A stretch of 64,000 bases of DNA from Acholeplasmataceae bacterium (GTDB lineage Bacteria; Bacillota_I; Bacilli_A; Acholeplasmatales; Acholeplasmataceae): NCBI GenBank assembly GCA_963675245.1, contig OY775910.1:832001-896000 (forward strand), read 5' to 3'. The notes under the pieces were generated by a model. It had not been told where the DNA came from. It saw nothing but the letters and a program-made list of their open reading frames with translations, and made no database searches. This document shows, piece after piece, positions 22,889-48,724 of the stretch; position 1 is the first letter of the stretch; each line of letters opens with the position of its first letter. The position numbers and the translations under genes were made by a program.

Positions 22889-23091
22889 TACATGTTAAAA
22901 ATTGATCTAAAAAAGTGTATTGTAGTATAGTAAAATCACTTTGTATTGTTGAAAATTTGTGATTGTATAAATATACTTATGTTTAGTTTGTGAAATAAAA
23001 AGATTTTAGATTTATTAGATTACATAGTTTGAATGGCTTGAAAAATAGAATATGAATCTTATCGGCAATTAATTACAAAGGAGTTAAATTA

Positions 23092-23901: not shown

Positions 23902-23990
23902 AATTTGATTTAGATAATAAAGGTACTATTTTTACAACAATTCAATGAGTTCAACACTAATAATAAAGTAAGTGGGTAAACTTCATGGCG

Positions 23991-24076
23991 TATTTTCGGC
24001 ACCATAATCTAAATTAATAGTATTTTGGAAGTTCATATAGATAGCAAAAAAGTCAACCAAAACGGTTGATTTTTGT
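23991..24076 (+). repeat. attR-like duplicate of the tRNA-Thr 3' end plus terminator
   Basis: 17-bp identity TATTTTCGGCACCATAA, then imperfect match to 17543-17613 including the GTCAACC/GGTTGAT hairpin. Confidence 0.88.
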
Positions 24077-24453
24077 TTAAATTAAATTGCTTTTAAGACA
24101 TCAAGTATTACAATATAGATGCTAAGTATGTAGAGGATCAACTACTTAGTTCTCTTTATTATGTAACAGATTAAAATATTGAACGATATAAGTGAGATAT
24201 GAAGATATATAAACGATGGTATATATTTTATATTGATAATTTTTGTAATTAATAAAATTTTTAGGATATAATAGGGTTAATATTAGAAACTAATCGTATA
24301 AATGCATACACCAATTCAAGTATATACATTTATTTTTTATGGGGAGATTAAAGATGCTTTTGGTTAAAAAGGGAAACTTAAATGAATTCTCTTCCTTTTA
24401 TGCGAGATCATACAAAAACAATAAATATATGTTTGTAAAGAGAGGCGATTGAT

Positions 24454-24948
24454 TTGGATGAAATTAAGATTAATACTGATTCTAGTTTAGATGATTATGT
24501 TAAGTTTAATCTGTTTGCTTTAGAAAAATATCATAAGATATCACTGCAATACAATTTATTAATCATTACGTGTATTTTATCATTTGGTATAGCCTTTATC
24601 ATAGAAGAGAAAGTACTTTTCATGTTGTTAGGAACGTTTTCTCTTGCTTATAGAATTTTTCACCCCATTTTTGTTAAGAGATTGATTAAGAAACAAGTAA
24701 AAGATTCACCATCTATAATTAGCAGTAGTGAATTAACAATCAACGAAGATGAAATAATGGAAGTATCAGAAACCACAACAACAAAAGTTAAATGGAAGAA
24801 TATATTTTCATTTGATGAAGATAATGAATTGATATATATTTTTCACACAAAGATACAAGCATTCATAATACAAAAAAGAAATCTTAATGATCAGGCATTA
24901 TATCATTTGCAAAAATGGTCTAAAGCAGAGAAAAACGACAGTCAATAG
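24454..24948 (+). CDS. YcxB-like membrane protein
   Basis: Two TM helices then KVKWKNI...IYIF...AFIIQKR. Confidence 0.7.
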   Translation: MDEIKINTDSSLDDYVKFNLFALEKYHKISLQYNLLIITCILSFGIAFIIEEKVLFMLLGTFSLAYRIFHPIFVKRLIKKQVKDSPSIISSSELTINEDEIMEVSETTTTKVKWKNIFSFDEDNELIYIFHTKIQAFIIQKRNLNDQALYHLQKWSKAEKNDSQ

Positions 24949-24958
24949 AGGTAATTTA

Positions 24959-26248
24959 ATGATTAATAAACCAATTGTTGTGTTCGGTTCAGTTGCGCTT
25001 TCTAACATATATATTGAGGAAGAATTTAATGAGTTCATAAAAATTGAACAGATAACGAACACATTACAAAATGATTTAAGATTTGATTGGGATTTTGAAA
25101 TCAATAACACACCTTATATGGAAGCTTTTTCACGCTCTAAAAGTTCCTACCAAAGAATTACGTTTAGAGAAATTATTGCTGCTGTTAGAATAAATGAAGA
25201 CTACATCAAAGAATTGAATGGCAATAATGAAGAAATGAGCATACAAAAAAACGCTAAAGTTTATTTTTTTAGAAATGGTAATGTAGTATTGTTGACAAAA
25301 TATGAATTCGAAGAATCTTTTCAAACGATAAAATCATATGAAGATACTATTAATACTTTACATAAAAATATTCCAATGTATCTCAAAAAAATATTTTGGG
25401 AATGCGTAGATTTATACCGACAAACAATTCTGAAGTGCAATTATAGACATATATTTACGTTCAATGAGAAAATATATGAGAACAACATTGATGAACGCAC
25501 AATGAGATTTTCAATAGTCAATCATTTCTTCAATCATTCAATTGATCAAATCAATCAATTTTTTGAAAGTTGTGAAACAATCCACACGAATGAAGTAATT
25601 ACTAACGATAAGATGACTATTAGATTAGGATGGACACATTCTATTTTTATGTCAAAAGATAAAATATTTGAAGATGTTTATAATGTTAACCTCTATTCAA
25701 TGTACTTATTAATCATCTTAGCTAATTGGGCTGGATTGGACTGTCTACGCTTCAATTTACTTAATATAGAAAAATATTATAATTGTAATATATTTAATAA
25801 AAAAGTTCCCTTTAGAGAAATAACGAAAATCAAAGACGTATTGAACAGGTATGTTTTCAAGATAAAAGAAGTATTCAACACCCTAGATAGTTATCAATCA
25901 ACAAACCATCCAAAATCAAAGTATATTCTAAATATGTATCAAAAGGTGTTTGAGGAGAAAGAAGCAGCTCAAAGTGTTAATAATAAAATAGACTTATTGA
26001 TGCAAAAAATAAATTACTTACACGACAATCAAAAGGGTAGTTTAAACAATTCAATGAATATGATTTTATTCATATTGGCTACGATTTCGGTGATATCTAC
26101 TGTCGATTTAATATATAAGATAATTTCTGATTATCCTATCGTTTCTAGTATAATCATATTTGCTGTATCTATAGTCTCGTTATTTGTTATATTTATTTTA
26201 GTTTTTAAACATAGATTAGGTATTTTTGATTCTATTAAAAATAAGTAA
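24959..26248 (+). CDS. Hypothetical protein with two C-terminal TM helices
   Basis: Long ORF; start reset to ATG 24959 after GAGGT; coiled region then two hydrophobic helices. Confidence 0.7.
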   Translation: MINKPIVVFGSVALSNIYIEEEFNEFIKIEQITNTLQNDLRFDWDFEINNTPYMEAFSRSKSSYQRITFREIIAAVRINEDYIKELNGNNEEMSIQKNAKVYFFRNGNVVLLTKYEFEESFQTIKSYEDTINTLHKNIPMYLKKIFWECVDLYRQTILKCNYRHIFTFNEKIYENNIDERTMRFSIVNHFFNHSIDQINQFFESCETIHTNEVITNDKMTIRLGWTHSIFMSKDKIFEDVYNVNLYSMYLLIILANWAGLDCLRFNLLNIEKYYNCNIFNKKVPFREITKIKDVLNRYVFKIKEVFNTLDSYQSTNHPKSKYILNMYQKVFEEKEAAQSVNNKIDLLMQKINYLHDNQKGSLNNSMNMILFILATISVISTVDLIYKIISDYPIVSSIIIFAVSIVSLFVIFILVFKHRLGIFDSIKNK

Positions 26249-26410
26249 TTCGGAGAAATTCATGTAATTATTCTCTAATAGAAAAACAGTAAATGGGTTT
26301 CACAACATATTAGGATTTGATTTTTATATAAAAAATCATATGATATAATAAAAAAAACAAACGTTTCAAAAAGAGATATTAGGAACGTATTAAAGCAAGG
26401 AGGGGTTTAT

Positions 26411-34623: not shown

Positions 34624-34770
34624 ATTTAAATGTATAGATATAAATCAATCCTTCCGGGTTGATTTTTCTTTAATTTAACATATTAATGTAAACGCTTGCA
34701 TTTATGAGCGTAACGCGTTAAAATGCAAGTGGGTAATTATCATTACATCTTTGGGGAAGGAATGAGTTAA

Positions 34771-35841
34771 TTGAATATAAAACTATTTATACCAGGACCA
34801 GTTGATGTGGATTCAAGTGTTTTAATGAGGCTAGCAACTCCTCAAATTGCACACCGTAGTAAAGAAGCGTCAGAACTACAAAAGCGTATTTCTGAAAAAC
34901 TTCAACAATTAATGTATACAAAAAATACGATTATTCTATCAACATCATCAGGTAGTGGGATTATGGAAATGGTAATACGGTCATGTACGAAAAAGCGCGT
35001 GGCTGTATTTAGTGTTGGTGCATTTGGTGATAGATGGTACAAAATGGCTATATCAAATAACATCCCTGCGGATGTTTTTCGTCCTGAACCAAGGCAAGCA
35101 ATTAAACCAGAAATGGTTGATGATGTCTTAAAAACCGGAAAGTACGATGCGATAACAATTACACATAATGAGACATCTTCAGGCATTATGAATCCAACTG
35201 AAGCGATTGGTGAAATTGTTAAGAAATATCCGGATGTTATTTATTTAGTAGATGCTGTTAGTAGTTTGGGTGGTGTCAAAATTGAAGTTGATAAAAGCGG
35301 TATAGATGTTTGTCTAGCTTCCACTCAAAAGTGTTTAGGGTTGCCACCTGGATTAAGTGTTGCCAGCGTTAGTGATAAAGCAATCGCACGTGCAAGATCC
35401 GTTGAATATCGTGGTTTTTATCTTGATTTAATCAATGTTGTTGATCGTGTTCATAAAGATTATCAATATCCAAGCACGCCAGTTACACCATTAATGTGGG
35501 CACTTGATTATCAATTAGATCGAATTTTAAATGATGAAGGATTAGAAAATCGCTTTACCCGTCATGCACATTTAGCACATATTGTGCAAGAGTGGGCTAA
35601 AAAATATTTTAGCTTATTTGCAGAAGAAGGATATCGTTCAAATACGGTAACGACTATATTAAACACAAAAGGGTATAGTGTATCAAAATTAAATGATGAA
35701 CTCATGAATAGAGGCTACATGATTAGTAATGGGTATGGTTCATTAAAAGAAAAAGCGTTTAGAATTGCTCACATGGCAGAACGAAACGAAAAAGATCTTC
35801 TAGCATTATTACATGAAATTGAAGATATTTGGGATTTATAG
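34771..35841 (+). CDS. Class V PLP aminotransferase (AGT/SerC-like)
   Basis: FIPGP, THNETSSG, DAVSS, STQKCLGLPPG, FRIAHM. Confidence 0.88.
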   Translation: MNIKLFIPGPVDVDSSVLMRLATPQIAHRSKEASELQKRISEKLQQLMYTKNTIILSTSSGSGIMEMVIRSCTKKRVAVFSVGAFGDRWYKMAISNNIPADVFRPEPRQAIKPEMVDDVLKTGKYDAITITHNETSSGIMNPTEAIGEIVKKYPDVIYLVDAVSSLGGVKIEVDKSGIDVCLASTQKCLGLPPGLSVASVSDKAIARARSVEYRGFYLDLINVVDRVHKDYQYPSTPVTPLMWALDYQLDRILNDEGLENRFTRHAHLAHIVQEWAKKYFSLFAEEGYRSNTVTTILNTKGYSVSKLNDELMNRGYMISNGYGSLKEKAFRIAHMAERNEKDLLALLHEIEDIWDL

Positions 35842-35849
35842 GTGAGAAT

Positions 35850-36755
35850 ATGTTGATATTAGCAAACGATGGTATTGATCCTTCTGCGAAAAACGTGTTA
35901 GAAGAAATGGGGCATACAGTTGATGTCTCACATTATGAAGGTGATGAACTGGAAGAAAAAATTAAAAATATAGATTGTTTAATCGTGCGTTCGGCGACTA
36001 AAATTAGAAAACCATTAATTAATGCTGCACTCGAAACGGGTCATCTTAAGTTAATTATAAGAGCAGGCGTAGGTATAGATAATATTGATCACGCATATGC
36101 TATTGAAAAAGGCATCAACGTTTTTAATACACCACATGCGAGTAGTAATGCAGTAGCTGAACTAACGATTGGACATATGCTTTCAATGGCGAGATACATT
36201 TATCATGCGAATGTTACGATGAGACAAGGTCAATGGCTAAAGAAAGATTATACGGGTATTGAATTGTCAGGGAAAAAGTTAGGCTTGATTGGTTTTGGAA
36301 AAATTGCACAGCTAGTTGCTAAAAAAGCATTAGCATTAGGTATGCACGTATCTTATTATAGCTTGAGAGGCGCGAAAGACAAGTTACCTGAATGTGCATA
36401 TCACACAAAAGAGCATATACTAAAACACTCTGATTTTATAAGTTTGCATATTCCACATCAAAAGGGAGAAAAACCGTTTATAGGTGAAGCGGAATTTGCA
36501 TTAATGAAAAAGAATACATATTTAATCAATACTGCTCGTGGTGGTGTAATAGATGAAGATGCATTGTTAGATGCACTTGATCAGGGGATAGTTGCTGTCG
36601 CTGCTTTAGATGTATATCAGGATGAACCAACTAAAAACGATCGTATCTATAGACATGATCGTATCTCCTTAACACCACACATTGGTGCGTCAACATATGA
36701 GGCACAACAACGTATTGGTTTAGAAATTATTGATACCATTAAAAAAAATATCTAG
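35850..36755 (+). CDS. D-2-hydroxyacid dehydrogenase (short SerA-like, no ACT domain)
   Basis: VRSATK, RAGVGIDN, GFGKIA, NTARGG, TPHIGAST; start ATG 35850. Confidence 0.88.
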   Translation: MLILANDGIDPSAKNVLEEMGHTVDVSHYEGDELEEKIKNIDCLIVRSATKIRKPLINAALETGHLKLIIRAGVGIDNIDHAYAIEKGINVFNTPHASSNAVAELTIGHMLSMARYIYHANVTMRQGQWLKKDYTGIELSGKKLGLIGFGKIAQLVAKKALALGMHVSYYSLRGAKDKLPECAYHTKEHILKHSDFISLHIPHQKGEKPFIGEAEFALMKKNTYLINTARGGVIDEDALLDALDQGIVAVAALDVYQDEPTKNDRIYRHDRISLTPHIGASTYEAQQRIGLEIIDTIKKNI

Positions 36756-36770
36756 GAGGATATAATCAGG

Positions 36771-39401
36771 ATGGCTGTAGTAAAACCGTTTAAGGCATTA
36801 CGCCCACGAAAGGATTTAGTTGAACGTGTCGCTTCATTACCATATGACGTGATGGACCGAAATGAAGCAAAAGTGATGGCGAAAGGAAATCCATATAGTT
36901 TTTTACATATCATCAGATCAGAAATAGATTTTCCATCATCCATGGATCCATATGATAAAAAAGTATATAAAAAAGCACAAACAAATTTAAAGATTTTTGA
37001 AGATGATGGCATCTTGGTACAAGATGACAAACCAATGATTTATATTTATAGACAAGTGATGGATGGTAATCCACAAACAGGTTTTGTTGCAAGCACGAGT
37101 GTAGATGATTATGTCAACAATATAATCAAAAAACATGAGCTTACATTATTAAGTAAAGAAAAAGATAGATTCAATCATTTTGATCGATGCGATGCGAATA
37201 CCGCACCTATCTTTTTAACCTATCGCGATCAAGAAAAACTCAACGAAATTCTTGAAACATGGACAACGAATCATGAACCAGAATTTGATATCGTTACTGA
37301 TGATAATGTGGGTCATGCCGTATGGAAGATAGATGATGATAGTGTCATTAATGACATTCAAGAACAATTTAAGCAAGTCAATAGTTTATATATTGCTGAT
37401 GGGCATCATAGAACAGCATCAGTTTCAAAAGTCGCTCAAAAAAGACGCACTGAAATTCCTAATTATACAGGCGATGAAGAATTTAATTTCTTCATGAGTG
37501 TCATTTTTCCAGAATCCACTTTAAATATAAAACCATATAATCGTGTGATACACGATCTTGGTGGATTAACAGATAAAGAATTCATGGATAAGATGAGCAA
37601 ACTCTTTACGATTGAACCAAGTGTTGCGCCATACATGCCAATTAAAAAGCATACATTTGGCATGTATTTTCATGAACAATGGTACCAATTAACATTGAAG
37701 AAAAGCGTGATTAAATCAGATAATATATTGGACAATATTGATGCTGCTATTTTAGAAGAAGAAGTGATTGGTGATATTTTAGGTATTAGAAATTTAGAAG
37801 TTAGTTCACGGATTAGTTTTATTGGTGGAAATCTTAGATTAAAAGGACTTAAAGAGAAGACAGATGCATGTGATGGTGTTGGATTCTCAATGTATCCTGT
37901 AACCATGTCTGAGATTATGGACGTTGCTGATTCTGGTCTGATTATGCCAGCTAAATCAACATGGTTTGAACCAAAACTATTAAGTGGACTCTTTGTACAT
38001 AAATTTGATAGTTATGCATTATCAACCGAAATAGATGGAAAGATCTCAACACAAACTAAAGAATATATTAACAGAGTACTAAATAAGATTCGCGAAAAAG
38101 ATGGTGATCAAAAAGAATTCATCCAAGCCGTCACAGAAGTATTTCATTCTTTAGGACCTGTGTTAGAACAACATCCAGAATATATTGAAAACAATATATT
38201 AGAACGTATCGTTGAACCGGAACGAGTTATTCAATTTAGAGTACCATGGGTAGATGATGATGGTAATGTACAAGTAAATAGAGGATTCCGTGTTCAGTTT
38301 AATGGTGCAATTGGACCATATAAAGGTGGTTTACGATTCCATCCTAGTGTGAACTTAGGCGTTGTTAAGTTCCTTGGCTTTGAACAAATCTTTAAGAACA
38401 GTTTAACAGGACTACCTATCGGTGGTGGTAAAGGGGGCAGTGACTTTAATCCACTTGGCAAAAGTGATCAAGAGATTAGACGTTTCTCCGAGTCCTTCAT
38501 GACAGAACTTTATCGCCACATTGGACCTGAGGTGGATGTGCCTGCTGGAGATATTGGTGTAGGTGCACGTGAAATTGGGTATTTATTTGGTCAGTATAGA
38601 AGAATCCGTGGAGCATTTGAAAATGGTGTTTTAACTGGAAAGGGATTTGATTTTGGTGGATCTCTCATTCGTCCTGAGGCAACTGGTTATGGGGCTACAT
38701 ATTATGCTTATCAAATGCTTAAACAAGATGATTTAGATTTCAAAAATAAAACTGTTGCTGTGAGTGGTTTTGGTAATGTGGCATGGGGTGTATGTAAAAA
38801 GGTTCGAGATTTGGGTGGTAAAGTTGTTACTTTAAGTGGACCGGAAGGTTATATCTATGATCCAGATGGTGTCACCACACAAGAGAAAATTGATTTCATG
38901 AGAGACATACGTTTAAACACCAGAGGCAAGATTGAAGATTATGCGATCAAGTATAATGTGCAATTTTTTCCAGGTAAAAAGCCTTGGGAAAGAAAAGTGG
39001 ATATTATTATGCCTTGTGCAACGCAAAATGAAATCCTCCTTTCTGATGCGAAACAGATTATTAAAAATGGTGTGAAGTATATTATTGAAGGGGCAAATAT
39101 GCCAATCACGAGTGAAGCGATTAAACTACTTCAGGATGCTGGTGTAATCATCGGTCCTGGTAAAGCAGCGAATGCTGGAGGGGTTGCTACAAGCGTATTA
39201 GAAATGACTCAAAACAGTACACACACAAGTTGGACAGCTGAAGAAGTTGATGAAAAACTTAGAAGCATCATGAAGAATATTTATAACAGTTGTGTCAGAG
39301 CAAGTAGTCGTTATAGTTTCGGTTATGACTTAATATCTGGCGCGAATATCGCAGGTTTTGTTAAAGTCGCTGACGCGATGATTGCGCAAGGCATCTATTA
39401 A
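36771..39401 (+). CDS. DUF1015-domain / glutamate dehydrogenase fusion
   Basis: N-terminal ~410 aa with PYDV, KKHELT, YIADGHHR, KSTWFEPK; C-terminal GdhA with GPYKGGLRFHP, GGGKGG, DVPAGD, RPEATGYG, GFGNV, EGANMP. Confidence 0.88.
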   Translation: MAVVKPFKALRPRKDLVERVASLPYDVMDRNEAKVMAKGNPYSFLHIIRSEIDFPSSMDPYDKKVYKKAQTNLKIFEDDGILVQDDKPMIYIYRQVMDGNPQTGFVASTSVDDYVNNIIKKHELTLLSKEKDRFNHFDRCDANTAPIFLTYRDQEKLNEILETWTTNHEPEFDIVTDDNVGHAVWKIDDDSVINDIQEQFKQVNSLYIADGHHRTASVSKVAQKRRTEIPNYTGDEEFNFFMSVIFPESTLNIKPYNRVIHDLGGLTDKEFMDKMSKLFTIEPSVAPYMPIKKHTFGMYFHEQWYQLTLKKSVIKSDNILDNIDAAILEEEVIGDILGIRNLEVSSRISFIGGNLRLKGLKEKTDACDGVGFSMYPVTMSEIMDVADSGLIMPAKSTWFEPKLLSGLFVHKFDSYALSTEIDGKISTQTKEYINRVLNKIREKDGDQKEFIQAVTEVFHSLGPVLEQHPEYIENNILERIVEPERVIQFRVPWVDDDGNVQVNRGFRVQFNGAIGPYKGGLRFHPSVNLGVVKFLGFEQIFKNSLTGLPIGGGKGGSDFNPLGKSDQEIRRFSESFMTELYRHIGPEVDVPAGDIGVGAREIGYLFGQYRRIRGAFENGVLTGKGFDFGGSLIRPEATGYGATYYAYQMLKQDDLDFKNKTVAVSGFGNVAWGVCKKVRDLGGKVVTLSGPEGYIYDPDGVTTQEKIDFMRDIRLNTRGKIEDYAIKYNVQFFPGKKPWERKVDIIMPCATQNEILLSDAKQIIKNGVKYIIEGANMPITSEAIKLLQDAGVIIGPGKAANAGGVATSVLEMTQNSTHTSWTAEEVDEKLRSIMKNIYNSCVRASSRYSFGYDLISGANIAGFVKVADAMIAQGIY

Positions 39402-39419
39402 TCAAATGGATTCGATATA

Positions 39420-39446
39420 GAGGATTCCTAAAGGAATCCTTTTTTT
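39420..39446 (+). terminator. Intrinsic terminator
   Basis: AGGATTCC-taaa-GGAATCCT followed by a T tract. Confidence 0.8.
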
Positions 39447-39647: not shown

Positions 39648-41120
39648 ATGAATTATCTAGGAATTGATATTGGATCCACAAATGTTAAGTGTCGGTTATC
39701 AGATGATAATCATGTCATTTTATATACGTCAGAAAAAACGTGCCAAATGATTGAAATCGATCAGCAGATGTATGTTGATATCGAAAAAATATATATTGAA
39801 ATTGAGCAAATGATTTTAGAAGCGAGCAATTTATCAGCTATAGATGCAATCAGTGTCTCATCATTTGGCGAGTCTTTTGTACTGCTTGATGAGGATGACC
39901 AAATCATAATGCATCCTATGATATATACAGATAACAGAGGTTTAGAAGAAGCACGAGAAGTGAAAAGAGATATAGATATTGCCCATCTCTATAATATTAC
40001 GGGAACAACACCTCAAAGTCTATATTCAATTTACAAACTTCTATGGTTTAAAAAGAATCATCCAAGTGAATATAATAAAGTCGTCAAATTTATGCAGATT
40101 GGTGACTATATTAATTATCGACTAACAGGTAAACACGTGACAGATTATTCACTTGCATCTCGTAGCGGTATTTTTGATTTAACAAAAAAAGAATTTTCAA
40201 AGACTTTACTGGATAAACTAAATATTAACATAGATATTTTTCCAAATCCATTGCAAACAGGATCTATCATCGGAGTAGTGCATACATCGTTGCTTGATCA
40301 ATGTCAAGTTGTTGTAGGTGGACATGATCAGGTAATGGCTGCGATTGGTTCTGGTGCTATTCATCATCATGCAGCTGTAGATGGAATGGGTACAGTTGAG
40401 TGCTTAACACCAATTTTTAGACATAAAGTTGAAGATATAAGTATGGGATTGAAAGGGTATGTTAATGTACCTTTCTTTGATGATTATTGCACATATATGT
40501 TTAACTACACTGGAGGCTCATTAGTTCAATGGGCAAAGAAGAATATATTTAACCAACAATTGACTGAGAAGGAAATGGAAGTGTTAACCATTAAACACAA
40601 TCATTTTCAACCAACAAAACTTCTGACATTACCTTATTTTTCTGGTGCCGCAACACCCAATCAAAATATAAATGCTAAGGGCAGCATCATTAACTTGACT
40701 TCAAAAACAACATCTTATGACATATATCAATCCATTTTAGAAGGATTAGCATTCGAAATGAAGTATAATTTAGAGATTGCGAAACATTACGGCATTAAAA
40801 TAGATAAGATCATTGCTTCTGGTGGTGGATCTAACTCTAGACTATGGCTACAAATTAAAGCAGATGTATTTAATCAAAAGATATATCCACTTGAAGATAA
40901 TGAAAGTGGGATTACGGGGGCCATCATTTTATGTGCTGTCGCACTTAAAAAATACAAAGACTTGGGAGAAGCTGTTGAGCAATTTGTGAAATATAAAGAA
41001 ACTGTTCAGCCAAATAATGATCATATTAAGGCATATGAGAAACAATATCAAAAATACATTAAGCTTTATGATACATTGCAACAATTTAGTTTAGAAGAGG
41101 AGGAAAATCATGTCACATAA
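39648..41120 (+). CDS. FGGY-family sugar kinase
   Basis: GIDIGSTNVK, TDYSLASRSG, GGHDQ, ASGGGS..WLQIKAD. Confidence 0.9.
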   Translation: MNYLGIDIGSTNVKCRLSDDNHVILYTSEKTCQMIEIDQQMYVDIEKIYIEIEQMILEASNLSAIDAISVSSFGESFVLLDEDDQIIMHPMIYTDNRGLEEAREVKRDIDIAHLYNITGTTPQSLYSIYKLLWFKKNHPSEYNKVVKFMQIGDYINYRLTGKHVTDYSLASRSGIFDLTKKEFSKTLLDKLNINIDIFPNPLQTGSIIGVVHTSLLDQCQVVVGGHDQVMAAIGSGAIHHHAAVDGMGTVECLTPIFRHKVEDISMGLKGYVNVPFFDDYCTYMFNYTGGSLVQWAKKNIFNQQLTEKEMEVLTIKHNHFQPTKLLTLPYFSGAATPNQNINAKGSIINLTSKTTSYDIYQSILEGLAFEMKYNLEIAKHYGIKIDKIIASGGGSNSRLWLQIKADVFNQKIYPLEDNESGITGAIILCAVALKKYKDLGEAVEQFVKYKETVQPNNDHIKAYEKQYQKYIKLYDTLQQFSLEEEENHVT

Positions 41121-42072
41121 TTTATATGTCACAGATTTAAGTGTATTGTGTCATGCTGAAAAAATTAAATTTACTGAGGGTAAAGCTGAAGGTATGAACT
41201 TTATCCACATGTATAATGGATCCTTGAATCTAATGATTTCTGTTGATCGTGCATTAGATATATACAGTGCTGACTTCAGAGGAAAGAATGTTGTGTTTAA
41301 ATCGAAAAATGGCATTGTTAATCCAAAATTATCTTCTCAAGCAATTGGATTTATCAATGATTTTGGTGGAGGATTATTATATACTTGTGGCCTTGATAAT
41401 ATTGGTGGGCCTAGAGATGGTTATATACAACATGGAAGTTTAGCATATTTACCAGCAGAACACGTTAATATAACAAAAGGATTTGATGAACATAAAAAGT
41501 TTTTTGTTAGCGTTGAAGGTGAGATTAAATATACGTCATTATTTGGGCACCACTTAGTATTAAAAAGATCGATTAAATTATTTTTTAATCAATCAAGCAT
41601 TTTCATTGAAGATCAAATAGAAAACCTTAATCATGAAGATGATCAATATATGTTAATGTATCATTTCAATTTTGGATATCCATTTATCAATGAACACACA
41701 AAACTTTACTTTAGCAATATTAGTAAAACTGATGTATTTAATCAAAATAAAAAAAGAACATACAGTGATTTTCACAGATTAGAGAAACCTATTGTCAATT
41801 ATCCGGAAGAGGTATTTATTCATGAGTTTGATAATACATCTACAAAGATAGATATTATAAATCAAGAAGATAGCGTATCACTTCATTTTGATAATGAGAG
41901 ATTGAAATATATGACACAGTGGAAAAGTATGGCTTCTGGTGATTATGCTTTAGGTATTGAACCAGCAACAACTAAATTATCAGAAAGAGCATATACGCCA
42001 ATTAAAGCGTTTGATAACCATGTATATAAGTTAGAATTAACATTTAAAAATAAGGAGAATACACATGAATAA
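41110..42072 (+). CDS. Aldose-1-epimerase-like (DUF4432) protein
   Basis: GGLLYTCGL, HG, MYHFNFGYP, GDYALGIEP. Confidence 0.78.
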   Translation: MSHNLYVTDLSVLCHAEKIKFTEGKAEGMNFIHMYNGSLNLMISVDRALDIYSADFRGKNVVFKSKNGIVNPKLSSQAIGFINDFGGGLLYTCGLDNIGGPRDGYIQHGSLAYLPAEHVNITKGFDEHKKFFVSVEGEIKYTSLFGHHLVLKRSIKLFFNQSSIFIEDQIENLNHEDDQYMLMYHFNFGYPFINEHTKLYFSNISKTDVFNQNKKRTYSDFHRLEKPIVNYPEEVFIHEFDNTSTKIDIINQEDSVSLHFDNERLKYMTQWKSMASGDYALGIEPATTKLSERAYTPIKAFDNHVYKLELTFKNKENTHE

Positions 42073-43462
42073 ACTTTACTTTATTGTAGGAACACAAGGA
42101 TTATATGGCGAAGACGTATTAAAACAAGTCTATAAAGATGGTGCTGAAATTGCTGCTTTCTTGAATAAATCATTAGGACAATTTGTTGAAGTAGCATATC
42201 AAGGTTATGTGAAAAGTAGTGAAGAAGTTGAGGCGGCTTGTGTGAAAGCCAGTGTCGATTCATCATGTAGTGGAGTTATTACATGGATGCATACGTTCTC
42301 ACCTGCTAAGACGTGGATAAAAGGACTTCAAAAACTACAAAAGCCACTTTGTCATTTACATACACAATTCAATGAACGTTTACCATATGATTCTATCGAT
42401 ATGGATTTCATGAACCTCAATCAAGCGGCACATGGAGGAAGAGAATTTGAATTTATCCTAACACGTTTAAATATACCTAGACACGTTGTTGTTGGATATT
42501 ATAAAAAACAACCAGTCATTAATGAATTGAAACGATTTGCAAGAGTCGCTAATGGTATTCATTTCTCAAGACAATTAAAAGTTGCTATGTTTGGTAATAA
42601 TATGAGAGAAGTTGCAGTTACTGATGGTGATCGTGTCGAGAGTCAAATTAAATTTGGTTGGGAAGTAAACTATTTTGCAGTTGGTGATTTAGTTACGATC
42701 ATTAATCAATTAAGAGATGACGAAATTGAAAAAAGATATCAAGAAGTCATCACTGCGTATACGATAAAAACAAATGATGTTCATGCAGTGAAAGAACAAG
42801 TGAAGTATGAACTAGCATTTGAGAAATTCTTAGAAATTAATAATATTGGTGCCATTACCGATACATTCCAAGATTTATATGGCATGGATCAATTACCAGG
42901 AATGGCTGCTCAACGAATTATGGATAAAGGTTATGGCTTTGCACCTGAAGGGGATTATAAAACAAGTGCATTGTCAGCAGTAATGCAAAAAATGGCAGAA
43001 AACATGAATGGTGCAACAGGATTTTTAGAAGATTATACATATGATTTAATTGAGGGTGATGAGACAGTCTTAGCAGCTCACATGTTAGAGGTCCCACCAT
43101 CATTTGCAGCAACAAAACCTACGATTGAAGTTCATCCACTTGGAATTGGTGATAAAAACCCACCGGCTAGACTTGTGTTTGACGGTATTACAGGTCCTGG
43201 TGTTGCCGTATGTATGATTGATCTAGGTGATCGCTTTAGAATAGTAAGTGCAGAAATTGAGCTCATTAAACAAATAGCTGCAATGCCAAACTTACCTGTT
43301 GCTAGAGTGATGTGGAAAGTAAAACCAGACTTTGAAAAAGGTGTTAAAGGTTGGTTGAATGCAGGTGGTGGTCATCACGTTGTTGTATCAACTGCATTAG
43401 ACCGTAAGGATATTGAATTGTTTGCCAAATTGACACAAACAGAAATCGTAAGTATTTATTAG
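42065..43462 (+). CDS. araA: L-arabinose isomerase
   Basis: WMHTFSPAK, MNLNQAAHGGRE, NMREVAVTDGD, EGDYK, EDYTY, HMLEV, GGHH. Confidence 0.92.
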   Translation: MNKLYFIVGTQGLYGEDVLKQVYKDGAEIAAFLNKSLGQFVEVAYQGYVKSSEEVEAACVKASVDSSCSGVITWMHTFSPAKTWIKGLQKLQKPLCHLHTQFNERLPYDSIDMDFMNLNQAAHGGREFEFILTRLNIPRHVVVGYYKKQPVINELKRFARVANGIHFSRQLKVAMFGNNMREVAVTDGDRVESQIKFGWEVNYFAVGDLVTIINQLRDDEIEKRYQEVITAYTIKTNDVHAVKEQVKYELAFEKFLEINNIGAITDTFQDLYGMDQLPGMAAQRIMDKGYGFAPEGDYKTSALSAVMQKMAENMNGATGFLEDYTYDLIEGDETVLAAHMLEVPPSFAATKPTIEVHPLGIGDKNPPARLVFDGITGPGVAVCMIDLGDRFRIVSAEIELIKQIAAMPNLPVARVMWKVKPDFEKGVKGWLNAGGGHHVVVSTALDRKDIELFAKLTQTEIVSIY

Positions 43463-43475
43463 AAGGGAAAACAAC

Positions 43476-44330
43476 ATGTTAGTAAACTTAAAAGACATAT
43501 TAAAGTATGCTGAAGATAATAAATGTGCAATTGCTGCTTTGAATGCTCCTACACTTGAAATGGCAATTGCTACCATTGAAGCAGCAGAAGAGTTAAATAA
43601 ACCAGTGATCATCATGCATGCTCAAATCCATGAAGATTTAGGCTACATTAAAATTGAACAAATTGCACCTATTCTCGTTGCATTTGCTAAGAATAGTTCT
43701 GTACCAGTATGTGTGCATCTTGATCATGGTGAAGATAAGGATTACGTATTTAAAGCAATTGAACTAGGTTTTTCATCTGTGATGTTTGATGCATCATTAA
43801 AACCATTTGAAGAAAACATCTTAGAAACAAAACAAGTTGTTGAATTTGCACATGCAAAAAATGTATCTGTGGAAGCAGAACTTGGTAGTATGCCAAATAA
43901 TCGTGGTGAATCAGATGATGAGTATATTCCTGAAGCTGCTGATTACTATACTAACCCAGATGAAGCGATTGAATTTATTGACAAAACAGGCATAGATGCA
44001 TTAGCTGTTTCATATGGATCAGTACATGGTGTATATAAAAGTGAACCCAATTTAGATATCAATGTGGTTAAAGAAATTAAAAAGAGAACTGATGTTCCAC
44101 TTGTATTACATGGTGCATCTGGCTTGTCAGTAAAAGATTTTAATGAATCAATTGATGCAGGTATCAGAAAAATTAATTACTTCACTTCAATGTCGTTTGA
44201 AGGTAGCAGGGCGATAAGAAATAAGTTGGCTTCATCGGATGAAGATGTTCATTTTCAAAAGTTAGCTATAATTGCAACTGTGGCGATGAAAGAAGATGCC
44301 AAGAGAGTAATTGGTATTTTCACAAAATAA
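43476..44330 (+). CDS. Class II ketose-bisphosphate aldolase
   Basis: HLDHG, SVMFDAS, VEAELG, GSVHG, LVLHGASG, KINY. Confidence 0.9.
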   Translation: MLVNLKDILKYAEDNKCAIAALNAPTLEMAIATIEAAEELNKPVIIMHAQIHEDLGYIKIEQIAPILVAFAKNSSVPVCVHLDHGEDKDYVFKAIELGFSSVMFDASLKPFEENILETKQVVEFAHAKNVSVEAELGSMPNNRGESDDEYIPEAADYYTNPDEAIEFIDKTGIDALAVSYGSVHGVYKSEPNLDINVVKEIKKRTDVPLVLHGASGLSVKDFNESIDAGIRKINYFTSMSFEGSRAIRNKLASSDEDVHFQKLAIIATVAMKEDAKRVIGIFTK

Positions 44331-44458
44331 ACAAATATATTATAACGTTCTGGTTTAATTATTAAATCAGACGTTTTAATATACTGACGTACTTTATTAT
44401 GATACACGTATAGTGTAAAATAGACATAAGAGAAAAGGATTTATAAGCGTGATATATT

Positions 44459-46723
44459 ATGAACTTTGTCTTTTCATCGTTATATAGAAAAACTAAAAAT
44501 ATTAATGTGGCATTTCAAAATGAAGCGCCACTACAAAAAGGTATATATAAAATTAAGTTAGCTGCGAGAAATACATATCGTGTCTTTTTGAATGACGTCT
44601 TAATTCACTATGGCCCATCAAGGAGTGCACACGGTTACTTACAAGAAGATCAATTGCTGATTCATGCAGATCGAATTAAAAATTATATCACCATAGAGGT
44701 TGTTGGACACAATATAAACAGCTACTATTTTGTTGATGAAGAACCCTTGTTTGGTATTGAGATTTATCTGAATGAACAATTATTACTGCATACGAATAAT
44801 TTTCAATGTTATTTGTTGAACGATCGAACAACCAAAATTCAACGTTATTCTTTTCAAAGAGATTTTGCTGAAAGTTATGTTCAAAAAGTAGACAGGTCGA
44901 TCTTTTATTTAGGGAATCATAATATGTTTCCTAGGTTAGATGTTATGTCATGTGAAGCGCCAAAAGTAATCGCTAGACAAACACCCTATCCCGATTTGAC
45001 ACATATTGAAACGTTAAGCAGTGTAGAGTCTGGGCAATTTATATTAGATACAACGTTACCGATATGGACCGATCGAGCGATTGAAAACATTAGTGAGACA
45101 TTTAAAGGATATGAAAAACAGGAGTTTGATATACGTCTAAGTGATGATATCAGTCGTATCGTTTATCAATCTTCAGAAGGATATTTGTGTAAGTCACTAA
45201 GTAATTATCAATATCAAATATATGATGCAACGCGCACATTGACAGGATTTATTAAATTATCGTTAACTGTCTTAGAACATACGATATTTTATGTGACGTT
45301 TGATGAAGTGGATTATAAAGAAAGTTCACGTAAACATACAGATGGTATTCATATTGATTTTTCTAGGAATAGCTGTTCGAATATTTTGAGATATGAACTC
45401 GCTGCTGGACAGTACGAGATAATTTCATTTGAGCCATATAGTCTTAGATATTTAAATATGATTGTATTTGACGGAAAGCTAGATGTATCGTCTGTACAAT
45501 TTGTTCGCTATGAGAATCAAGAAATATATAAATTATCTGTTCAAACAGCAGATGAAGATATCAATAACATAGTGAAAGCATCCCAACATACGCTTGCACA
45601 AAATGCAGTTGATGTTTTGACTGATTGTCCATCTAGAGAAAGGGCTGGTTGGTTATGTGATGCTTGGTTTTCTGCACGCGCCGAACAACTCATGACCGGT
45701 CATAACACCATTGAACAAAATTTCTTATGGAATTATGCCGTTTCACCACAAAGTGAGTATTTACCAAAAGGTATGATTCCCATGAATTATCCTGCAGATC
45801 ATACAGATGGTATTTTTATTCCTAACTGGTCATTATGGTATGGTATTGAATTATATGATTATTTTTTAAGAACAAGTGATGAAAAGCTTGTGAAGGAATC
45901 TAGATCAAAAATAGAGGGGTTAATTCAGTATTTTAAAGCTTTTGAAAATAGTATTGGGCTATTAGAGGATTTGGAAAGTTGGGTATTTATTGAATGGAGT
46001 AAAGCAAACGAATTTATCTCAGGTGTGAACATACCATCAAATATGATATACGCTCACTTCTTTGAATGTGTTGGTAAACTTTATCACGAATCATCTTATT
46101 TAGATAAGGCACTGCAAATCAAGCATACTATTCGCCAAGTCAGTTTCAATGGTACGTTTTTTGAGGATCAATTAATCAGAGATGAACATCAAGCACTTAA
46201 ACAAACGCATCATATTAGTGAAACATGTCAATATTATGCATTTTTCACTGGAGTTGCTACAAATAAAACACATAAACATTTATTTAACATGTTAATTAAT
46301 GAGTTTGGTTATCATCGTGATGAGAAGAACGTACATCCCAATGTTTACAAATCAAATGCATTTATAGGAAATTATCTAAGATTAGAAATGTTGAGACGTC
46401 ATTACAAAACAGAACAATTATTAAAAGAATGTAAAGATTATTTTTTATATATGGCAAATAGAACAGGGACATTATGGGAGCATAGTTATGTTTACGGCAG
46501 TCTTAATCACGGTTTTGCATCTTATGCTGCCAATTTAATTGTTTCATCACTAACAGGATTGAGTGGCTATAATGCGAAACAGAGAACCATTAAATATCAA
46601 AATCCAACCATAAAGTTGGATTTTGATATAATCATACCTTTCGGAGAAGGGATACGTGTTCATCAAAAAGATGGCAATATCACATATCGTATACCAGAAG
46701 ATATAGAAGTGGTTAAAGACTAA
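44459..46723 (+). CDS. GH78-like (alpha-L-rhamnosidase-related) glycoside hydrolase
   Basis: TDCPSRERAGWLCD; GTLWE...SLNHG. Confidence 0.75.
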   Translation: MNFVFSSLYRKTKNINVAFQNEAPLQKGIYKIKLAARNTYRVFLNDVLIHYGPSRSAHGYLQEDQLLIHADRIKNYITIEVVGHNINSYYFVDEEPLFGIEIYLNEQLLLHTNNFQCYLLNDRTTKIQRYSFQRDFAESYVQKVDRSIFYLGNHNMFPRLDVMSCEAPKVIARQTPYPDLTHIETLSSVESGQFILDTTLPIWTDRAIENISETFKGYEKQEFDIRLSDDISRIVYQSSEGYLCKSLSNYQYQIYDATRTLTGFIKLSLTVLEHTIFYVTFDEVDYKESSRKHTDGIHIDFSRNSCSNILRYELAAGQYEIISFEPYSLRYLNMIVFDGKLDVSSVQFVRYENQEIYKLSVQTADEDINNIVKASQHTLAQNAVDVLTDCPSRERAGWLCDAWFSARAEQLMTGHNTIEQNFLWNYAVSPQSEYLPKGMIPMNYPADHTDGIFIPNWSLWYGIELYDYFLRTSDEKLVKESRSKIEGLIQYFKAFENSIGLLEDLESWVFIEWSKANEFISGVNIPSNMIYAHFFECVGKLYHESSYLDKALQIKHTIRQVSFNGTFFEDQLIRDEHQALKQTHHISETCQYYAFFTGVATNKTHKHLFNMLINEFGYHRDEKNVHPNVYKSNAFIGNYLRLEMLRRHYKTEQLLKECKDYFLYMANRTGTLWEHSYVYGSLNHGFASYAANLIVSSLTGLSGYNAKQRTIKYQNPTIKLDFDIIIPFGEGIRVHQKDGNITYRIPEDIEVVKD

Positions 46724-47583
46724 CGATCCGATTGTTCCTTCATATATTGTTTTGGTGTGACCAATGTATATCGCTTAAATTCTTTCGAGAAATAAAAGGG
46801 ACTAGAATAACCAACAGTTTCAGCAATTTTGGTAATGCTGAACTGTTTTGTTTTTAACATAATAAAGGCTTTACGCATCCGCAAGGATATGATATATTTA
46901 GACATATTAACACCCATTACTTCTTTAAATTTTCGTGATAAATATGAAGAATTCATATAAAATATTTCACTGATTGAATTTAAAGACAAAGAGGGTTCAC
47001 CGATATGCTCATCGATGTAATCGATAATGGATTTCATGCGTGATTCAGCATCAGTATAAGGCTTAGAAGTATTGATGTCATGCTCATGAATTAGTAGACT
47101 GAATATATAAAGTAAATGAGATAACACATTCAAAGTAGAATGAATTTTTGAGTCTCTAGCATCTTCAAGCATATCTGAAAATGCTTTGATGTATTTTCTA
47201 GGGTTCTGTAACGTATATACTGGGTTATCAACAGTAATGTTTGCGTGATCACATAAGTGTTTAGCACCTAAACCATTAAATTCAACCCACATATATTGCC
47301 AAGGATCGTTTTTATCTGGATAATAAGAAATTTTCTCAGAAGGTATAATCATGAACATTTGATTTGCTTTAACAACGTATTTTTTTTCACCAACGTTAAA
47401 ATAGCCTCGGCCTTTGATAACGATATGCAATGTGTAGATTGATCGACTGACTGGACCTATCGTTTCTTTTGTCGGGCTACATTTTTCATAACCCACAATC
47501 ATTGGCACGATGTTAAGAGGAATTCTATCATCGAGATAGCGAAAAAATATATTGTTCGATTTAAAGGAGTATTCTTTGCTCAT
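46720..47583 (-). CDS. AraC-family transcriptional regulator
   Basis: N-terminal cupin; YLSRKFK and IAETVGYSSPFYFSKEFK HTH. Confidence 0.93.
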   Translation of the reverse strand: MSKEYSFKSNNIFFRYLDDRIPLNIVPMIVGYEKCSPTKETIGPVSRSIYTLHIVIKGRGYFNVGEKKYVVKANQMFMIIPSEKISYYPDKNDPWQYMWVEFNGLGAKHLCDHANITVDNPVYTLQNPRKYIKAFSDMLEDARDSKIHSTLNVLSHLLYIFSLLIHEHDINTSKPYTDAESRMKSIIDYIDEHIGEPSLSLNSISEIFYMNSSYLSRKFKEVMGVNMSKYIISLRMRKAFIMLKTKQFSITKIAETVGYSSPFYFSKEFKRYTLVTPKQYMKEQSDR

Positions 47584-47761
47584 GCCATCATTTTAACCAC
47601 TAAAGTAAAAAAAGTAAATACAAAAACACTTAAATAATGTAAATAAATCACTATAAGGTAAAAAAAATACATTAATATGTAAACAAATTCTATGGTTCAT
47701 TCCATTTATATATGATAATCTATAGCCATGATAACGGTTACATTATCAATGGCGGAAAGTT

Positions 47762-48724
47762 ATGACTATGACAATAAATAAAAATGAAAAACGCGTCATC
47801 ACGAACAAGAAGAAACGTAAATTCACTAGAAAAGACTGGTCTTTACTCACTTTTTTGATACCTACAGTCATATATGTGTTTTTACTTCACTATCTACCAA
47901 TGGGTGGATTAATTATCGCTTTTAAAGATTATAACTCATATCAAGGTTTGTTCAATTCACCTTGGACAAGCATGGGTGGGTTTGGTCACTTTTATTATTT
48001 TATGACACTACCTAATTTTTGGCATATTATTTTAAATACGTTTGTAATTAGTATCTATTCGATTGGTGTTAATACGATATTTCCTATTGTATTGGCATTG
48101 TTAATCAATGAAATTAGACTTAAGTGGTTTAAAAAAACTGTACAAACAGTTTCTTACGCACCTTACTTTATTTCCGTTGTTGTCTTAGTTGGTATGCTAT
48201 TTTCATTTACGGACTTAGAAACAGGAATTATTAACTCGATTATCAGAGCTTTTGGCGGTGCACCTTCAAACTTAATGGAAAATGCAGTGTTATTTACGAC
48301 GATTTACGTTGTTAGTGGATTATGGCAAGGCTTAGGTTGGTGGTCAATTATTTACGTAGGAATTCTTTCTACGGTGGATCCTGAATTACATGAGGCAGCA
48401 GTTATGGATGGTGCTAGTCGTATGAAACGTATGTGGCACATTAATTTACCTGCCATATTACCTGTAGCTATTATTATGCTTATATTAAGTATCGGAAATA
48501 TGCTTACAGTTGGTTTTGAAAAAATTTATCTAATGCAAACTAATGGTAATATCACTGCATCAGAAGTCATATCAACTTATGTTTATCGAGTATCCTTAAG
48601 AGCGCTTATTCCACAATATAGTTATGCAACAGCGATAGGACTGTTCAATTCCATCATTAGTGTTGTGTTACTTGTGACGGCGAATAAGATTTCTGCAAAA
48701 GTCAATGAGACATCATTGTGGTAG
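47762..48724 (+). CDS. Carbohydrate ABC transporter permease (LplB/YteP-like)
   Basis: YAPYFISVVV; EAA motif EAAVMDGASR. Confidence 0.92.
   Translation: MTMTINKNEKRVITNKKKRKFTRKDWSLLTFLIPTVIYVFLLHYLPMGGLIIAFKDYNSYQGLFNSPWTSMGGFGHFYYFMTLPNFWHIILNTFVISIYSIGVNTIFPIVLALLINEIRLKWFKKTVQTVSYAPYFISVVVLVGMLFSFTDLETGIINSIIRAFGGAPSNLMENAVLFTTIYVVSGLWQGLGWWSIIYVGILSTVDPELHEAAVMDGASRMKRMWHINLPAILPVAIIMLILSIGNMLTVGFEKIYLMQTNGNITASEVISTYVYRVSLRALIPQYSYATAIGLFNSIISVVLLVTANKISAKVNETSLW

What the first reader, a model, noticed from the sequence alone, without database searches (positions are those of the whole stretch)
34771..39401. DUF1015-glutamate dehydrogenase fusion in a SerC/SerA-like operon
Seen: a single 876-aa ORF with a short linker near 38010-38060, no stop and no internal SD-ATG; it follows a class V aminotransferase and a SerA-like dehydrogenase, with no serB in the window. 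Established: DUF1015 genes often neighbour serC/serA, and DGHHR is a ParB/Srx-fold motif also used by the serine kinase SerK. Inference: DUF1015 supplies the phosphoserine/serine step while the fused GDH recycles glutamate/2-oxoglutarate and NAD(P)H, giving a self-balancing serine module. This is a Rosetta-stone clue to DUF1015 function.
Basis: partly seen in the sequence, partly recalled or inferred. Interest (0 to 1): 0.7.

Follow-up and report, generated by a model that had tools for sequence, protein, structure and literature searches.

The report
Serine kinase fused to glutamate dehydrogenase
One real gene, conserved in dozens of related bacteria, joins a DUF1015 ("SerBK", likely serine kinase) domain to a glutamate dehydrogenase of the likely NAD-using type, and its sugar-repression-type promoter suggests the operon likely turns serine into 3-phosphoglycerate rather than making serine.

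Summary
The 876-aa DUF1015–GDH fusion is real: 76 other protein clusters and 22 of 94 genomes of the Izimaplasma order carry it, mostly behind the same aminotransferase and SerA. DUF1015's role is already published (SerBK, Price et al. 2026: complements serB, SerK/SbnI fold), so the Rosetta-stone clue is not new. The GDH fusion was not found in my paper searches or scan look-ups; the scan has met other SerBK operons before. Three results point to breakdown of serine rather than synthesis. The GDH half, labelled NADP-specific, carries the NAD-type residues of the Clostridium symbiosum enzyme (76 of 76). A cre-like catabolite-control site overlaps the predicted -35 in 21 of 21 loci. Relatives embed the operon among amino-acid fermentation genes. 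This genome also has a second serC–serA pair beside glutamate synthase, whose SerA is fused to a TIM-barrel metalloenzyme that fills the serB slot in many relatives: a candidate undescribed phosphoserine phosphatase. Best reading (0.6, inferred, no assay): serine + ATP → 3-phosphoglycerate + ammonium, with GDH regenerating 2-oxoglutarate and NADH. New variant of a known kind.

The parts
34642..34665 (+). terminator-like hairpin closing the upstream acetyltransferase genes
   Evidence: 6 found vs 2.1 +/- 1.5 in shuffles; a pattern match, function inferred
34687..34700 (+). cre-like (CcpA-type) operator, overlapping the predicted -35
   Evidence: same site at -74 to -86 from the start codon in 21 of 21 fused loci; consensus and position rule from PMC3463425
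34696..34724 (+). predicted promoter: -35 at 34696-34701, 17-nt spacer, -10 at 34719-34724
   Evidence: read by eye and from the conserved upstream regions printed; not reported by the scan (weak -35)
34771..35841 (+). class V aminotransferase, likely phosphoserine aminotransferase of the SerC3 type (356 aa)
   Evidence: PF00266; canonical SerC models far below cut-off; 56-63% identity to the aminotransferases of clostridial serC-serA-DUF1015 operons; ortholog in 20 of 22 fusion genomes and 0 of 28 non-fusion genomes
35850..36755 (+). short SerA-like 2-hydroxyacid dehydrogenase without ACT domain (301 aa from the ATG at 35850; longest ORF starts at 35829)
   Evidence: best solved relative: 307-aa phosphoglycerate dehydrogenase 1wwk, E 4e-67; the usual NAD-selecting Asp is Ser171 here
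36771..38012 (+). DUF1015 / SerBK domain (residues 1-414), SerK/SbnI fold; invariant H122-E123, D210-G-H-H-R214, P393-x-K-x-x-W-F-E-P-K402
   Evidence: (AlphaFold2 pLDDT 93)
38013..38054 (+). in-frame linker, about 14 residues, variable in sequence and fixed in length
38055..39401 (+). glutamate dehydrogenase domain of the Clostridium symbiosum (NAD-preferring) type; K518, K542, K554, D594 intact; F667, G690, P691, E692 at the coenzyme-selecting positions
   Evidence: residue roles from PMC3157743
39419..39442 (+). terminator-like hairpin closing the three-gene unit

Best explanation
The gene encodes one two-enzyme protein, a SerBK (DUF1015) domain joined to a glutamate dehydrogenase, that likely completes a self-balancing route from serine to 3-phosphoglycerate used when sugar is scarce. 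Inferred steps: SerBK phosphorylates serine (ATP or ADP); the class V aminotransferase moves the amino group of phosphoserine to 2-oxoglutarate; SerA reduces phosphohydroxypyruvate to 3-phosphoglycerate; the fused NAD-type GDH oxidises the glutamate, releasing ammonium and regenerating both the 2-oxoglutarate and the NADH. Net: serine + ATP -> 3-phosphoglycerate + ammonium + ADP. Shown: the fusion, its conservation, the fold, the residues, the operon layout and the operator-like site. Inferred: every activity, the coenzyme, the repression and the direction. The fusion likely arose once, by joining neighbouring serBK and gdh genes in an amino-acid fermentation cluster of Izemoplasmatales, and likely reached this genus by transfer.
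For: (1) SerK 5x0b Z 12.9 (rmsd 5.3, 218 aligned) and SbnI 5ujd Z 11.6 (rmsd 4.9, 215 aligned), next row Z 5.5; all 9 Foldseek hits under E 0.001 are SbnI, SerK or the Pyrococcus protein 1vk1. The published homolog BT1151 is needed for growth on L-serine as nitrogen source, and the reverse kinase step has Keq 4e-4. (2) The GDH half is closest to the C. symbiosum NAD enzyme (661 bits vs 531 for NADP enzymes). F238 and G261-P262 equivalents are kept in 76 of 76 scorable fusions and D263 is acidic in 70 of 76; 28 of 28 stand-alone GDHs fetched from the window's own order have Ser/Ala and Ser-Asp-Ser instead. SerA keeps the NAD-selecting Asp in 22 of 22 Izimaplasma-order loci. (3) A cre-like site overlaps the predicted -35 in 21 of 21 fused loci; 19 of 21 have a site within 1 mismatch, against 7 of 1050 shuffles. 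CcpA-like and HPr kinase genes are in 5 of 5 genomes tested. Promoter-overlapping cre sites repress in Bacillus. (4) ilvE follows the fusion directly in 19 of 21 scorable Izimaplasma-type loci; a divergent class I/II aminotransferase, a PEP-carboxykinase-like gene, ptb and buk are near; G007 has LeuDH-vor-ptb-buk. (5) No Iso_dh family member in 5 of 5 fusion genomes tested, so 2-oxoglutarate likely has to be recycled. (6) This genome has a second serC-serA pair beside gltB with a candidate hydrolase. (7) Strains zrk6 and WC44 have the same order with an unfused GDH of another subfamily, 33-34% identical.
Against: No assay, transcript or mutant. This genome already has serine dehydratase SdaA (over cut-off) and PPDK-family genes, so the route is not needed to break down serine. 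In 19 of 22 Izimaplasma-order fusion genomes and G007 neither SerB nor the TIM-barrel candidate was found, so there SerBK is the only known phosphoserine/serine link, and a DUF1015 protein does complement E. coli serB. cre-like sites also precede 2 of 4 biosynthetic-context serC copies (1 and 2 mismatches, further upstream), CcpA can activate, and part of the site's conservation is the -35 itself. The CcpA-like proteins are under the model cut-off (292-301 vs 442 bits). C. symbiosum N290 is Gly719 here, and I recall dual-coenzyme Bacteroidales GDHs with a similar motif. SerA of the window and of G007 has lost the NAD-selecting Asp, so the loop may not be strictly NAD-NAD here. The window itself lacks the fermentation neighbours. 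All fused copies share one origin, so the counts are not independent.
Confidence: 0.6

Rival explanations
1. The operon mainly makes serine (or runs both ways): SerA and the aminotransferase make phosphoserine, SerBK removes the phosphate, and GDH uses SerA's NADH and ammonium to restore glutamate, so ammonium is fixed into serine without a TCA cycle.
For: A DUF1015 protein complements E. coli serB. No SerB over cut-off in 48 of 48 genomes tested. Most fusion genomes have no other candidate for the step. SdaA and PPDK already give a breakdown route in this genome. G239, G236 and G237 lack glutamate synthase, leaving GDH as a 2-oxoglutarate-to-glutamate route.
Against: A promoter-overlapping cre-like site would shut the operon when glycolytic 3-phosphoglycerate is plentiful. 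NAD-type GDHs are described as catabolic. The reverse kinase step is uphill and a redox-neutral loop adds no pull. These genomes have GlyA (own genome) and glycine cleavage (5 of 5) as another serine source. This genome has a separate serC-serA locus with gltB.
Confidence: 0.24
2. The fusion is a tolerated by-product of gene order. GDH is the general hub for IlvE and the other aminotransferases of the fermentation cluster, and its link to SerBK has no special functional meaning.
For: SerBK and GDH share no substrate, so channelling between them is not expected. Unfused serBK-gdh-ilvE exists (L009, L010). Two fusion loci (L003, L004) lack serA, serC and ilvE in the DNA held, with enzyme motifs kept. 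Single odd DUF1015 fusions to butyrate kinase, SerA and DUF2062 also occur.
Against: No DUF1015-only match in 94 genomes of the Izimaplasma order; linker length fixed within one residue; the three-gene unit moved as a block into this genus without ilvE.
Confidence: 0.13
3. The SerBK domain is a nucleotide- or serine-sensing regulator of the GDH hexamer rather than a pathway enzyme.
For: ParB-fold domains act as nucleotide-binding modules in many fusions (PMC12704722).
Against: Putative catalytic HE and DGHHR motifs are kept in 77 of 77 fusions; strict co-occurrence with the serC-like gene.
Confidence: 0.03

Closest known systems
SerBK (DUF1015, PF06245): CDIF630erm_01132, CBO1128, BT1151 (Price et al., GapMind 2026; bioRxiv 10.1101/2024.10.14.618325, PMC13759103)
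   Same: Same Pfam family, next to serA and a serC-like gene, genome without SerB, SerK/SbnI-like predicted fold.
   Different: Fused to GDH, whereas 149 of the best 150 library representatives are at most 513 aa. 'Glutamate dehydrogenase' and 'fusion' occur 0 times in the main text of PMC13759103. No catabolite-control site is discussed in the section read.
SerK of Thermococcus kodakarensis (ADP-dependent free serine kinase; PMC5120207) and SbnI of Staphylococcus
   Same: Same fold; SerK was proposed to start a serine -> phosphoserine -> 3-phosphoglycerate route in peptide-using archaea, with serK near aminotransferase and PGDH genes in Desulfurococcales.
   Different: Only 11-14% identity, about 100 extra N-terminal residues, no sequence-level match to PDB even with a 136-sequence profile; phosphate donor unknown; no GDH fusion in the passages read.
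NAD+-specific glutamate dehydrogenase of Clostridium symbiosum (PDB 1bgv; PMC3157743)
   Same: Best solved relative; F238, G261, P262 kept, D263 as Glu; catalytic residues kept.
   Different: N290 is Gly; carries a 414-residue N-terminal SerBK domain; databases label it NADP-specific.

Membership tests
SerBK / DUF1015 | PF06245 over cut-off | tested here: met
   381 vs 25.8 bits
SerBK / DUF1015 | encoded near serA and a serC-like gene, in a genome without SerB | tested here: met
   (20 of 22 loci)
SerBK / DUF1015 | SerK/SbnI-type fold with conserved acidic and DGHHR motifs | tested here: met
   the match of E123 and D210 to SerK's catalytic residues is recalled and inferred, not read from a printed structural alignment
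SerBK / DUF1015 | about 50% identity to the published reference proteins | not tested
   reference sequences not fetched; identity to unfused clostridial-type homologs is 42-56%
SerBK / DUF1015 | complements serB, or kinase/phosphatase activity | not testable with these tools
   needs bench work
NAD+-specific GDH, C. symbiosum type (EC 1.4.1.2) | Phe238, Gly261, Pro262, acidic 263 | tested here: met
   F667, G690, P691, E692; 76 of 76 and 70 of 76; roles from PMC3157743
NAD+-specific GDH, C. symbiosum type (EC 1.4.1.2) | Asn290 binding the ribose 2'-OH | tested here: not met
   invariant Gly719; so filed as NAD-preferring by likeness, not as a proven member
NAD+-specific GDH, C. symbiosum type (EC 1.4.1.2) | measured NAD over NADP preference | not testable with these tools
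   needs kinetics
NADP-specific GDH (EC 1.4.1.4, NF006929) | model score over cut-off | tested here: met
   706 vs 536 bits
NADP-specific GDH (EC 1.4.1.4, NF006929) | Ser at the positions of F238 and P262 | tested here: not met
   Phe and Pro in 76 of 76
Canonical SerC (TIGR01364, NF003764) | model score over cut-off | tested here: not met
   about 30 bits vs 443.6 and 253
SerC3 phosphoserine transaminase | close similarity to the tested representative A5I0W7 | not tested
   reference not fetched; only context and likeness to clostridial operon copies
SerA without ACT domain | PF00389 + PF02826 with catalytic Arg, Glu, His motifs | tested here: met
   TIGR01327 305 vs 454 bits because the model is the long form
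CcpA regulon | cre-like site at the promoter plus CcpA and HPr kinase genes | tested here: inconclusive
   site and HPr kinase present; best LacI-family hit below the CcpA cut-off but itself preceded by such a site; binding untested

The most novel reading that the evidence does not exclude
This genome runs the phosphorylated serine pathway in both directions with two unrelated non-SerB enzymes: a catabolite-repressed SerBK-GDH fusion that turns serine into 3-phosphoglycerate in a closed nitrogen and redox loop, and a separate gltB-serC-serA locus whose TIM-barrel domain is an undescribed phosphoserine phosphatase family that fills the serB slot across Acholeplasmatales and other Bacilli.
Probability: 0.35. 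Interest if true: 0.72.

Novelty: new variant of a known kind. Interest (0 to 1): 0.52.

Why it matters
The published SerBK work leaves open which way the enzyme runs in cells, how an uphill reverse-kinase step could supply serine, and whether ATP or ADP is used. This fusion carries a built-in NAD(H) reporter, so with the two upstream enzymes it allows a three-protein, one-cuvette test of direction and phosphate donor. It also shows a database label (NADP-specific GDH) that is likely wrong for a family of at least 77 clusters. The side result, a TIM-barrel family sitting where serB or serBK should be, is a ready candidate for one of the commonest remaining gaps in amino-acid pathway annotation (serB unexplained in 16 of 208 prototrophs).

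Tried and rejected
Assembly artefact or chance read-through: rejected. P0079 and P0080 (484-485 aa) were checked as possible split forms; P0079 begins at the Met inside the DUF1015 C-terminal motif, so it is a partial call or a broken copy and was not used. Sequence searches of PDB with the DUF1015 domain gave only chance hits (E 0.76 and 0.31). Gluconeogenic necessity (no way from pyruvate to PEP): rejected, PPDK_N in 57 of 59 genomes. SdaA replacement: only a weak trend, 12 of 22 fusion vs 23 of 28 hand-picked non-fusion genomes, kin not independent; not used as support. Expression: no RNA holder listed. PMC12704722 lists a DUF1015 construct that is not among the named nucleotide binders; whether it was purified could not be seen. 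The SbnI paper was not held. The TIM-barrel fold search ranks sugar epimerases first (3wqo, TM 0.78) and endonuclease IV lower, and the Atlas gives only generic PF01261 names, so fold does not settle its function. Earlier scan notes on GDH-linked dikinase regulators concern other proteins. Paper searches that found nothing on the fusion; on the TIM-barrel/serA link.
Full report
OBSERVATION. The 876-aa ORF has DUF1015 at residues 4-324 and a complete glutamate dehydrogenase (GDH) at 428-875. The joint is in frame, without stop or in-frame start codon. Terminator-like hairpins at 34642-34665 and 39419-39442 bracket the three genes. The genome is one contig of 1.63 Mb, 99.96% complete, with one DUF1015 and one GDH, both in this protein; the only other ELFV hit is a 362-aa Leu/Val-dehydrogenase-like gene. 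No SerB reaches its cut-off.

THE FUSION IS REAL AND LINEAGE-BOUND. Of the best 120 of 1721 protein hits, 77 (the window's own included) carry all three Pfam domains, at 60-100% identity; the few named ones are mostly Izimaplasma/Izemoplasma. A DUF1015 profile against proteins of 733-2090 aa gave 79 hits: 76 of this fusion and 3 others. In the order of G151 (an Izimaplasma), 22 of 94 genomes have it (21 whole, 1 cut by a contig end) and none has a DUF1015-only match; 20 of 22 have serC-serA directly upstream. The serC ortholog is in 20 of those 22 and in 0 of 28 non-fusion genomes that I picked by hand from 72. In the window's own order only 2 of 151 genomes have the fusion, G000 and G007; five other genomes of the genus have neither half. 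The closest named locus is an Acholeplasmataceae MAG (L001). In trees of both halves G000 and G007 sit inside the Izimaplasma-order copies, next to G239 and G236. All fused DUF1015 rows form one side of a branch (support 100), and a clade of the Izimaplasma-order rows without G000/G007 is rejected (p-AU 0.002; 21 rows, 15 fused, rooted on 4 unfused clostridial and fusobacterial rows; the group was named after I had seen the first tree). One origin and a later transfer are the likely history, so the counts below are not independent events.

WHAT THE DUF1015 HALF IS. The family is no longer unknown. Price et al. named it SerBK: CBO1128 rescues an E. coli serB mutant, BT1151 is needed for growth on L-serine as nitrogen source, the fold resembles SbnI, and direction, thermodynamics (reverse kinase Keq 4e-4) and ATP vs ADP remain open (bioRxiv 10.1101/2024.10.14.618325: abstract, passages and section 6 read; PMC13759103: passages; supplements not read). 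My model of the domain (pLDDT 93, pTM 0.89) matches SerK (Z 12.9, rmsd 5.3, 218 aligned) and SbnI (Z 11.6, rmsd 4.9, 215 aligned), well above the next row (Z 5.5) (Foldseek agrees). H122-E123 and D210-GHH-R214 are invariant in 136 diverse homologs and in 77 of 77 fusions. Their match to SerK's catalytic residues is recalled and inferred.

WHAT THE GDH HALF IS. NCBIfam and JGI call it NADP-specific. Its best solved relative is the NAD-specific enzyme of Clostridium symbiosum, 661 bits against 531 for NADP enzymes. Griffin and Engel (PMC3157743: abstract and introduction read) show that F238, P262 and D263 disfavour NADPH and that NADP enzymes mostly have Ser there. The fusion has F667, G690, P691, E692: Phe and Gly-Pro in 76 of 76 scorable proteins (P0077 is cut short), acidic 263 in 70 of 76. 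All 28 stand-alone GDHs fetched from the own order show Ser/Ala and Ser-Asp-Ser. The fused GDHs nest in the clostridial-motif clade, apart from those native enzymes. Against: N290 is Gly719, and I recall dual-coenzyme enzymes with this motif. SerA keeps its NAD-selecting Asp in 22 of 22 Izimaplasma-order loci but not in the window or G007.

DIRECTION. (a) Regulation. A cre-like site lies at 34687-34700. The same site sits 74-86 nt before the start in 21 of 21 fused loci examined and overlaps a predicted -35; 19 of 21 have a site within 1 mismatch of my scanning consensus, against 7 of 1050 shuffles (within 2: 21 of 21 vs 108 of 1050). The scanning consensus was recalled; the window's site differs at 1 position from the classical consensus and at 2 from the matrix consensus in PMC3463425 (passages), which states that promoter-overlapping sites repress and sites upstream of -35 activate. 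25 of 501 operon-leading ORFs of this genome have such a site, among them the CcpA-like gene itself and the Leu-dehydrogenase-vor-ptb-buk cluster. CcpA-like (under cut-off) and HPr kinase genes are in 5 of 5 genomes. Thirteen unfused loci have 2-5 mismatches; two of four biosynthetic-context serC copies have sites with 1 and 2 mismatches. (b) Context. ilvE follows the fusion in 19 of 21 scorable Izimaplasma-type loci (misses L003, L004; L012 is cut), a class I/II aminotransferase is divergent upstream in 19, and of 17 wide loci 14 show a PEP-carboxykinase-like gene, 13 ptb and 10 buk; G007 has LeuDH-vor-ptb-buk; the window has none of these nearby. (c) No Iso_dh in 5 of 5 fusion genomes; glutamine synthetase and glycine cleavage in 5 of 5; glutamate synthase only in G000 and G007. 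(d) G000 has a second serC-serA pair beside gltB. By recalled textbook energies the net reaction serine + ATP -> 3-phosphoglycerate + ammonium + ADP is near equilibrium at standard state and downhill at millimolar ammonium and high ATP/ADP; no computation was run. A like route was proposed for archaeal SerK (PMC5120207, passages).

EVIDENCE THE OTHER WAY. SdaA and PPDK-family genes are present, so the route is not needed to break down serine; its gain would be entry at 3-phosphoglycerate for one ATP. In 19 of 22 fusion genomes of the Izimaplasma order and in G007 neither SerB nor the TIM-barrel candidate was found, so SerBK may serve synthesis there too. SerBK and GDH share no substrate, and unfused serBK-gdh-ilvE exists in zrk6 and WC44 with another GDH subfamily, so the covalent link may be incidental even if the functional link is not. 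Domain contact could not be modelled, and no RNA holder was listed.

THE SECOND LOCUS. Its SerA carries a 270-residue TIM-barrel domain (PF01261 30.6 vs 31.1 bits; CbiR phosphodiesterase model 65 vs 105), also in G033 and G045. Homologs are in 26 of 151 genomes of the order. All 17 stand-alone loci fetched have the gene directly after SerA; canonical serC precedes it in 7 of 7 wide loci and in 3 genomes of other families, while 16 more distant homologs lie elsewhere. G013 and G017 have the same serC-serA with DUF1015 in that slot. No SerB over cut-off in 48 of 48 genomes tested. His, Glu and Asp residues are conserved at positions I recall as endonuclease IV metal ligands, but fold searches rank sugar epimerases first, and in G203 the gene ends a his operon. 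I rate a phosphoserine phosphatase role at about 0.6.

NOVELTY. The SerBK role and the two-way idea are published; GDH is textbook. I found no report of the fusion or of the TIM-barrel/serA link (open-access library only; listings and abstract starts for papers not named above; supplements of the GapMind paper unseen and could list such proteins). Scan look-ups found 30 earlier notes with DUF1015 and serine, two of which also favour a serine-to-phosphoglycerate direction; I saw them after forming this reading and did not test them. None concerned this fusion or the second locus. PMC12704722 (passages, section 8, one supplement row) included a DUF1015 protein without naming it a binder.

VERDICT. 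Real, conserved, apparently undescribed fusion of two known kinds of enzyme: new variant of a known kind. Best mechanism: catabolite-repressed, self-balancing conversion of serine to 3-phosphoglycerate (0.6); synthesis or two-way use 0.24; incidental fusion 0.13; regulation 0.03. Interest 0.52, carried by the testable handle on SerBK's direction and by the candidate new phosphatase family.

Noticed in passing
own genome outside the window, L149:7256-14557 (G000:C1 about 1123255-1130556); also L150, L155: gltB, a second serC-like gene (54% to the window's) and a 575-aa SerA fused to an AP_endonuc_2/CbiR-like TIM-barrel domain with conserved metal-ligand-type residues. In G033 the pair lies in an amino-acid biosynthesis cluster. 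Stand-alone homologs follow SerA directly in 17 of 17 loci fetched, behind a canonical serC in 7 of 7 wide loci and in 3 genomes of other families; G013 and G017 have DUF1015 in that same slot. 16 more distant homologs (27-44%) are not beside serA. Candidate undescribed phosphoserine phosphatase.
   Followed up: yes
L152, L153, L238 (G203:C1): A fusion-bearing genome with a second serC-serA copy (74%) followed by gltBD inside a his/aro/ilv-leu/met/thr biosynthesis island; its TIM-barrel gene ends the his operon, so a histidinol-phosphate role is a rival for that family (his genes recognised by eye).
   Followed up: partly
L009:4012-9846 and L010:3957-9915: Strains zrk6 and WC44 have serC-serA-serBK-gdh-ilvE with an unfused GDH of a different subfamily and no cre-like site within 2 mismatches.
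   Followed up: partly
P0271, P0272, P0133: Single-cluster DUF1015 fusions: to butyrate kinase (over cut-off), to SerA, and to DUF2062. Each has one member, so an artefact is possible.
   Followed up: no
L154, L157-L159, L181-L192: A conserved 541-aa divergent PEP-carboxykinase-like protein (101 vs 369 bits) beside ptb and buk, and a KamA-family radical SAM gene scoring best as glutamate 2,3-aminomutase (608 vs 650 bits), lie near the fusion operon.
   Followed up: no
window 35850-36755 and L160: Only the two copies in the window's genus have Ser in place of SerA's NAD-selecting Asp (followed by Leu-Arg in the window), a possible coenzyme shift after transfer.
   Followed up: partly
window 39648-48724: Sugar-use cluster (FGGY kinase, DUF4432, L-arabinose isomerase, further genes) with a cre-like site between the divergent genes at 47583 and 47762.
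   Followed up: no
window about 17000-26300: Low-GC stretch (25-30% vs about 34%), possibly acquired DNA.
   Followed up: no
L151:5492-11779 (G000:C1 about 926500-932800): The genome's only other ELFV dehydrogenase is a 362-aa Leu/Val-dehydrogenase-like gene heading a vor-ptb-buk cluster with a cre-like site; the fusion is therefore the only GDH found.
   Followed up: yes
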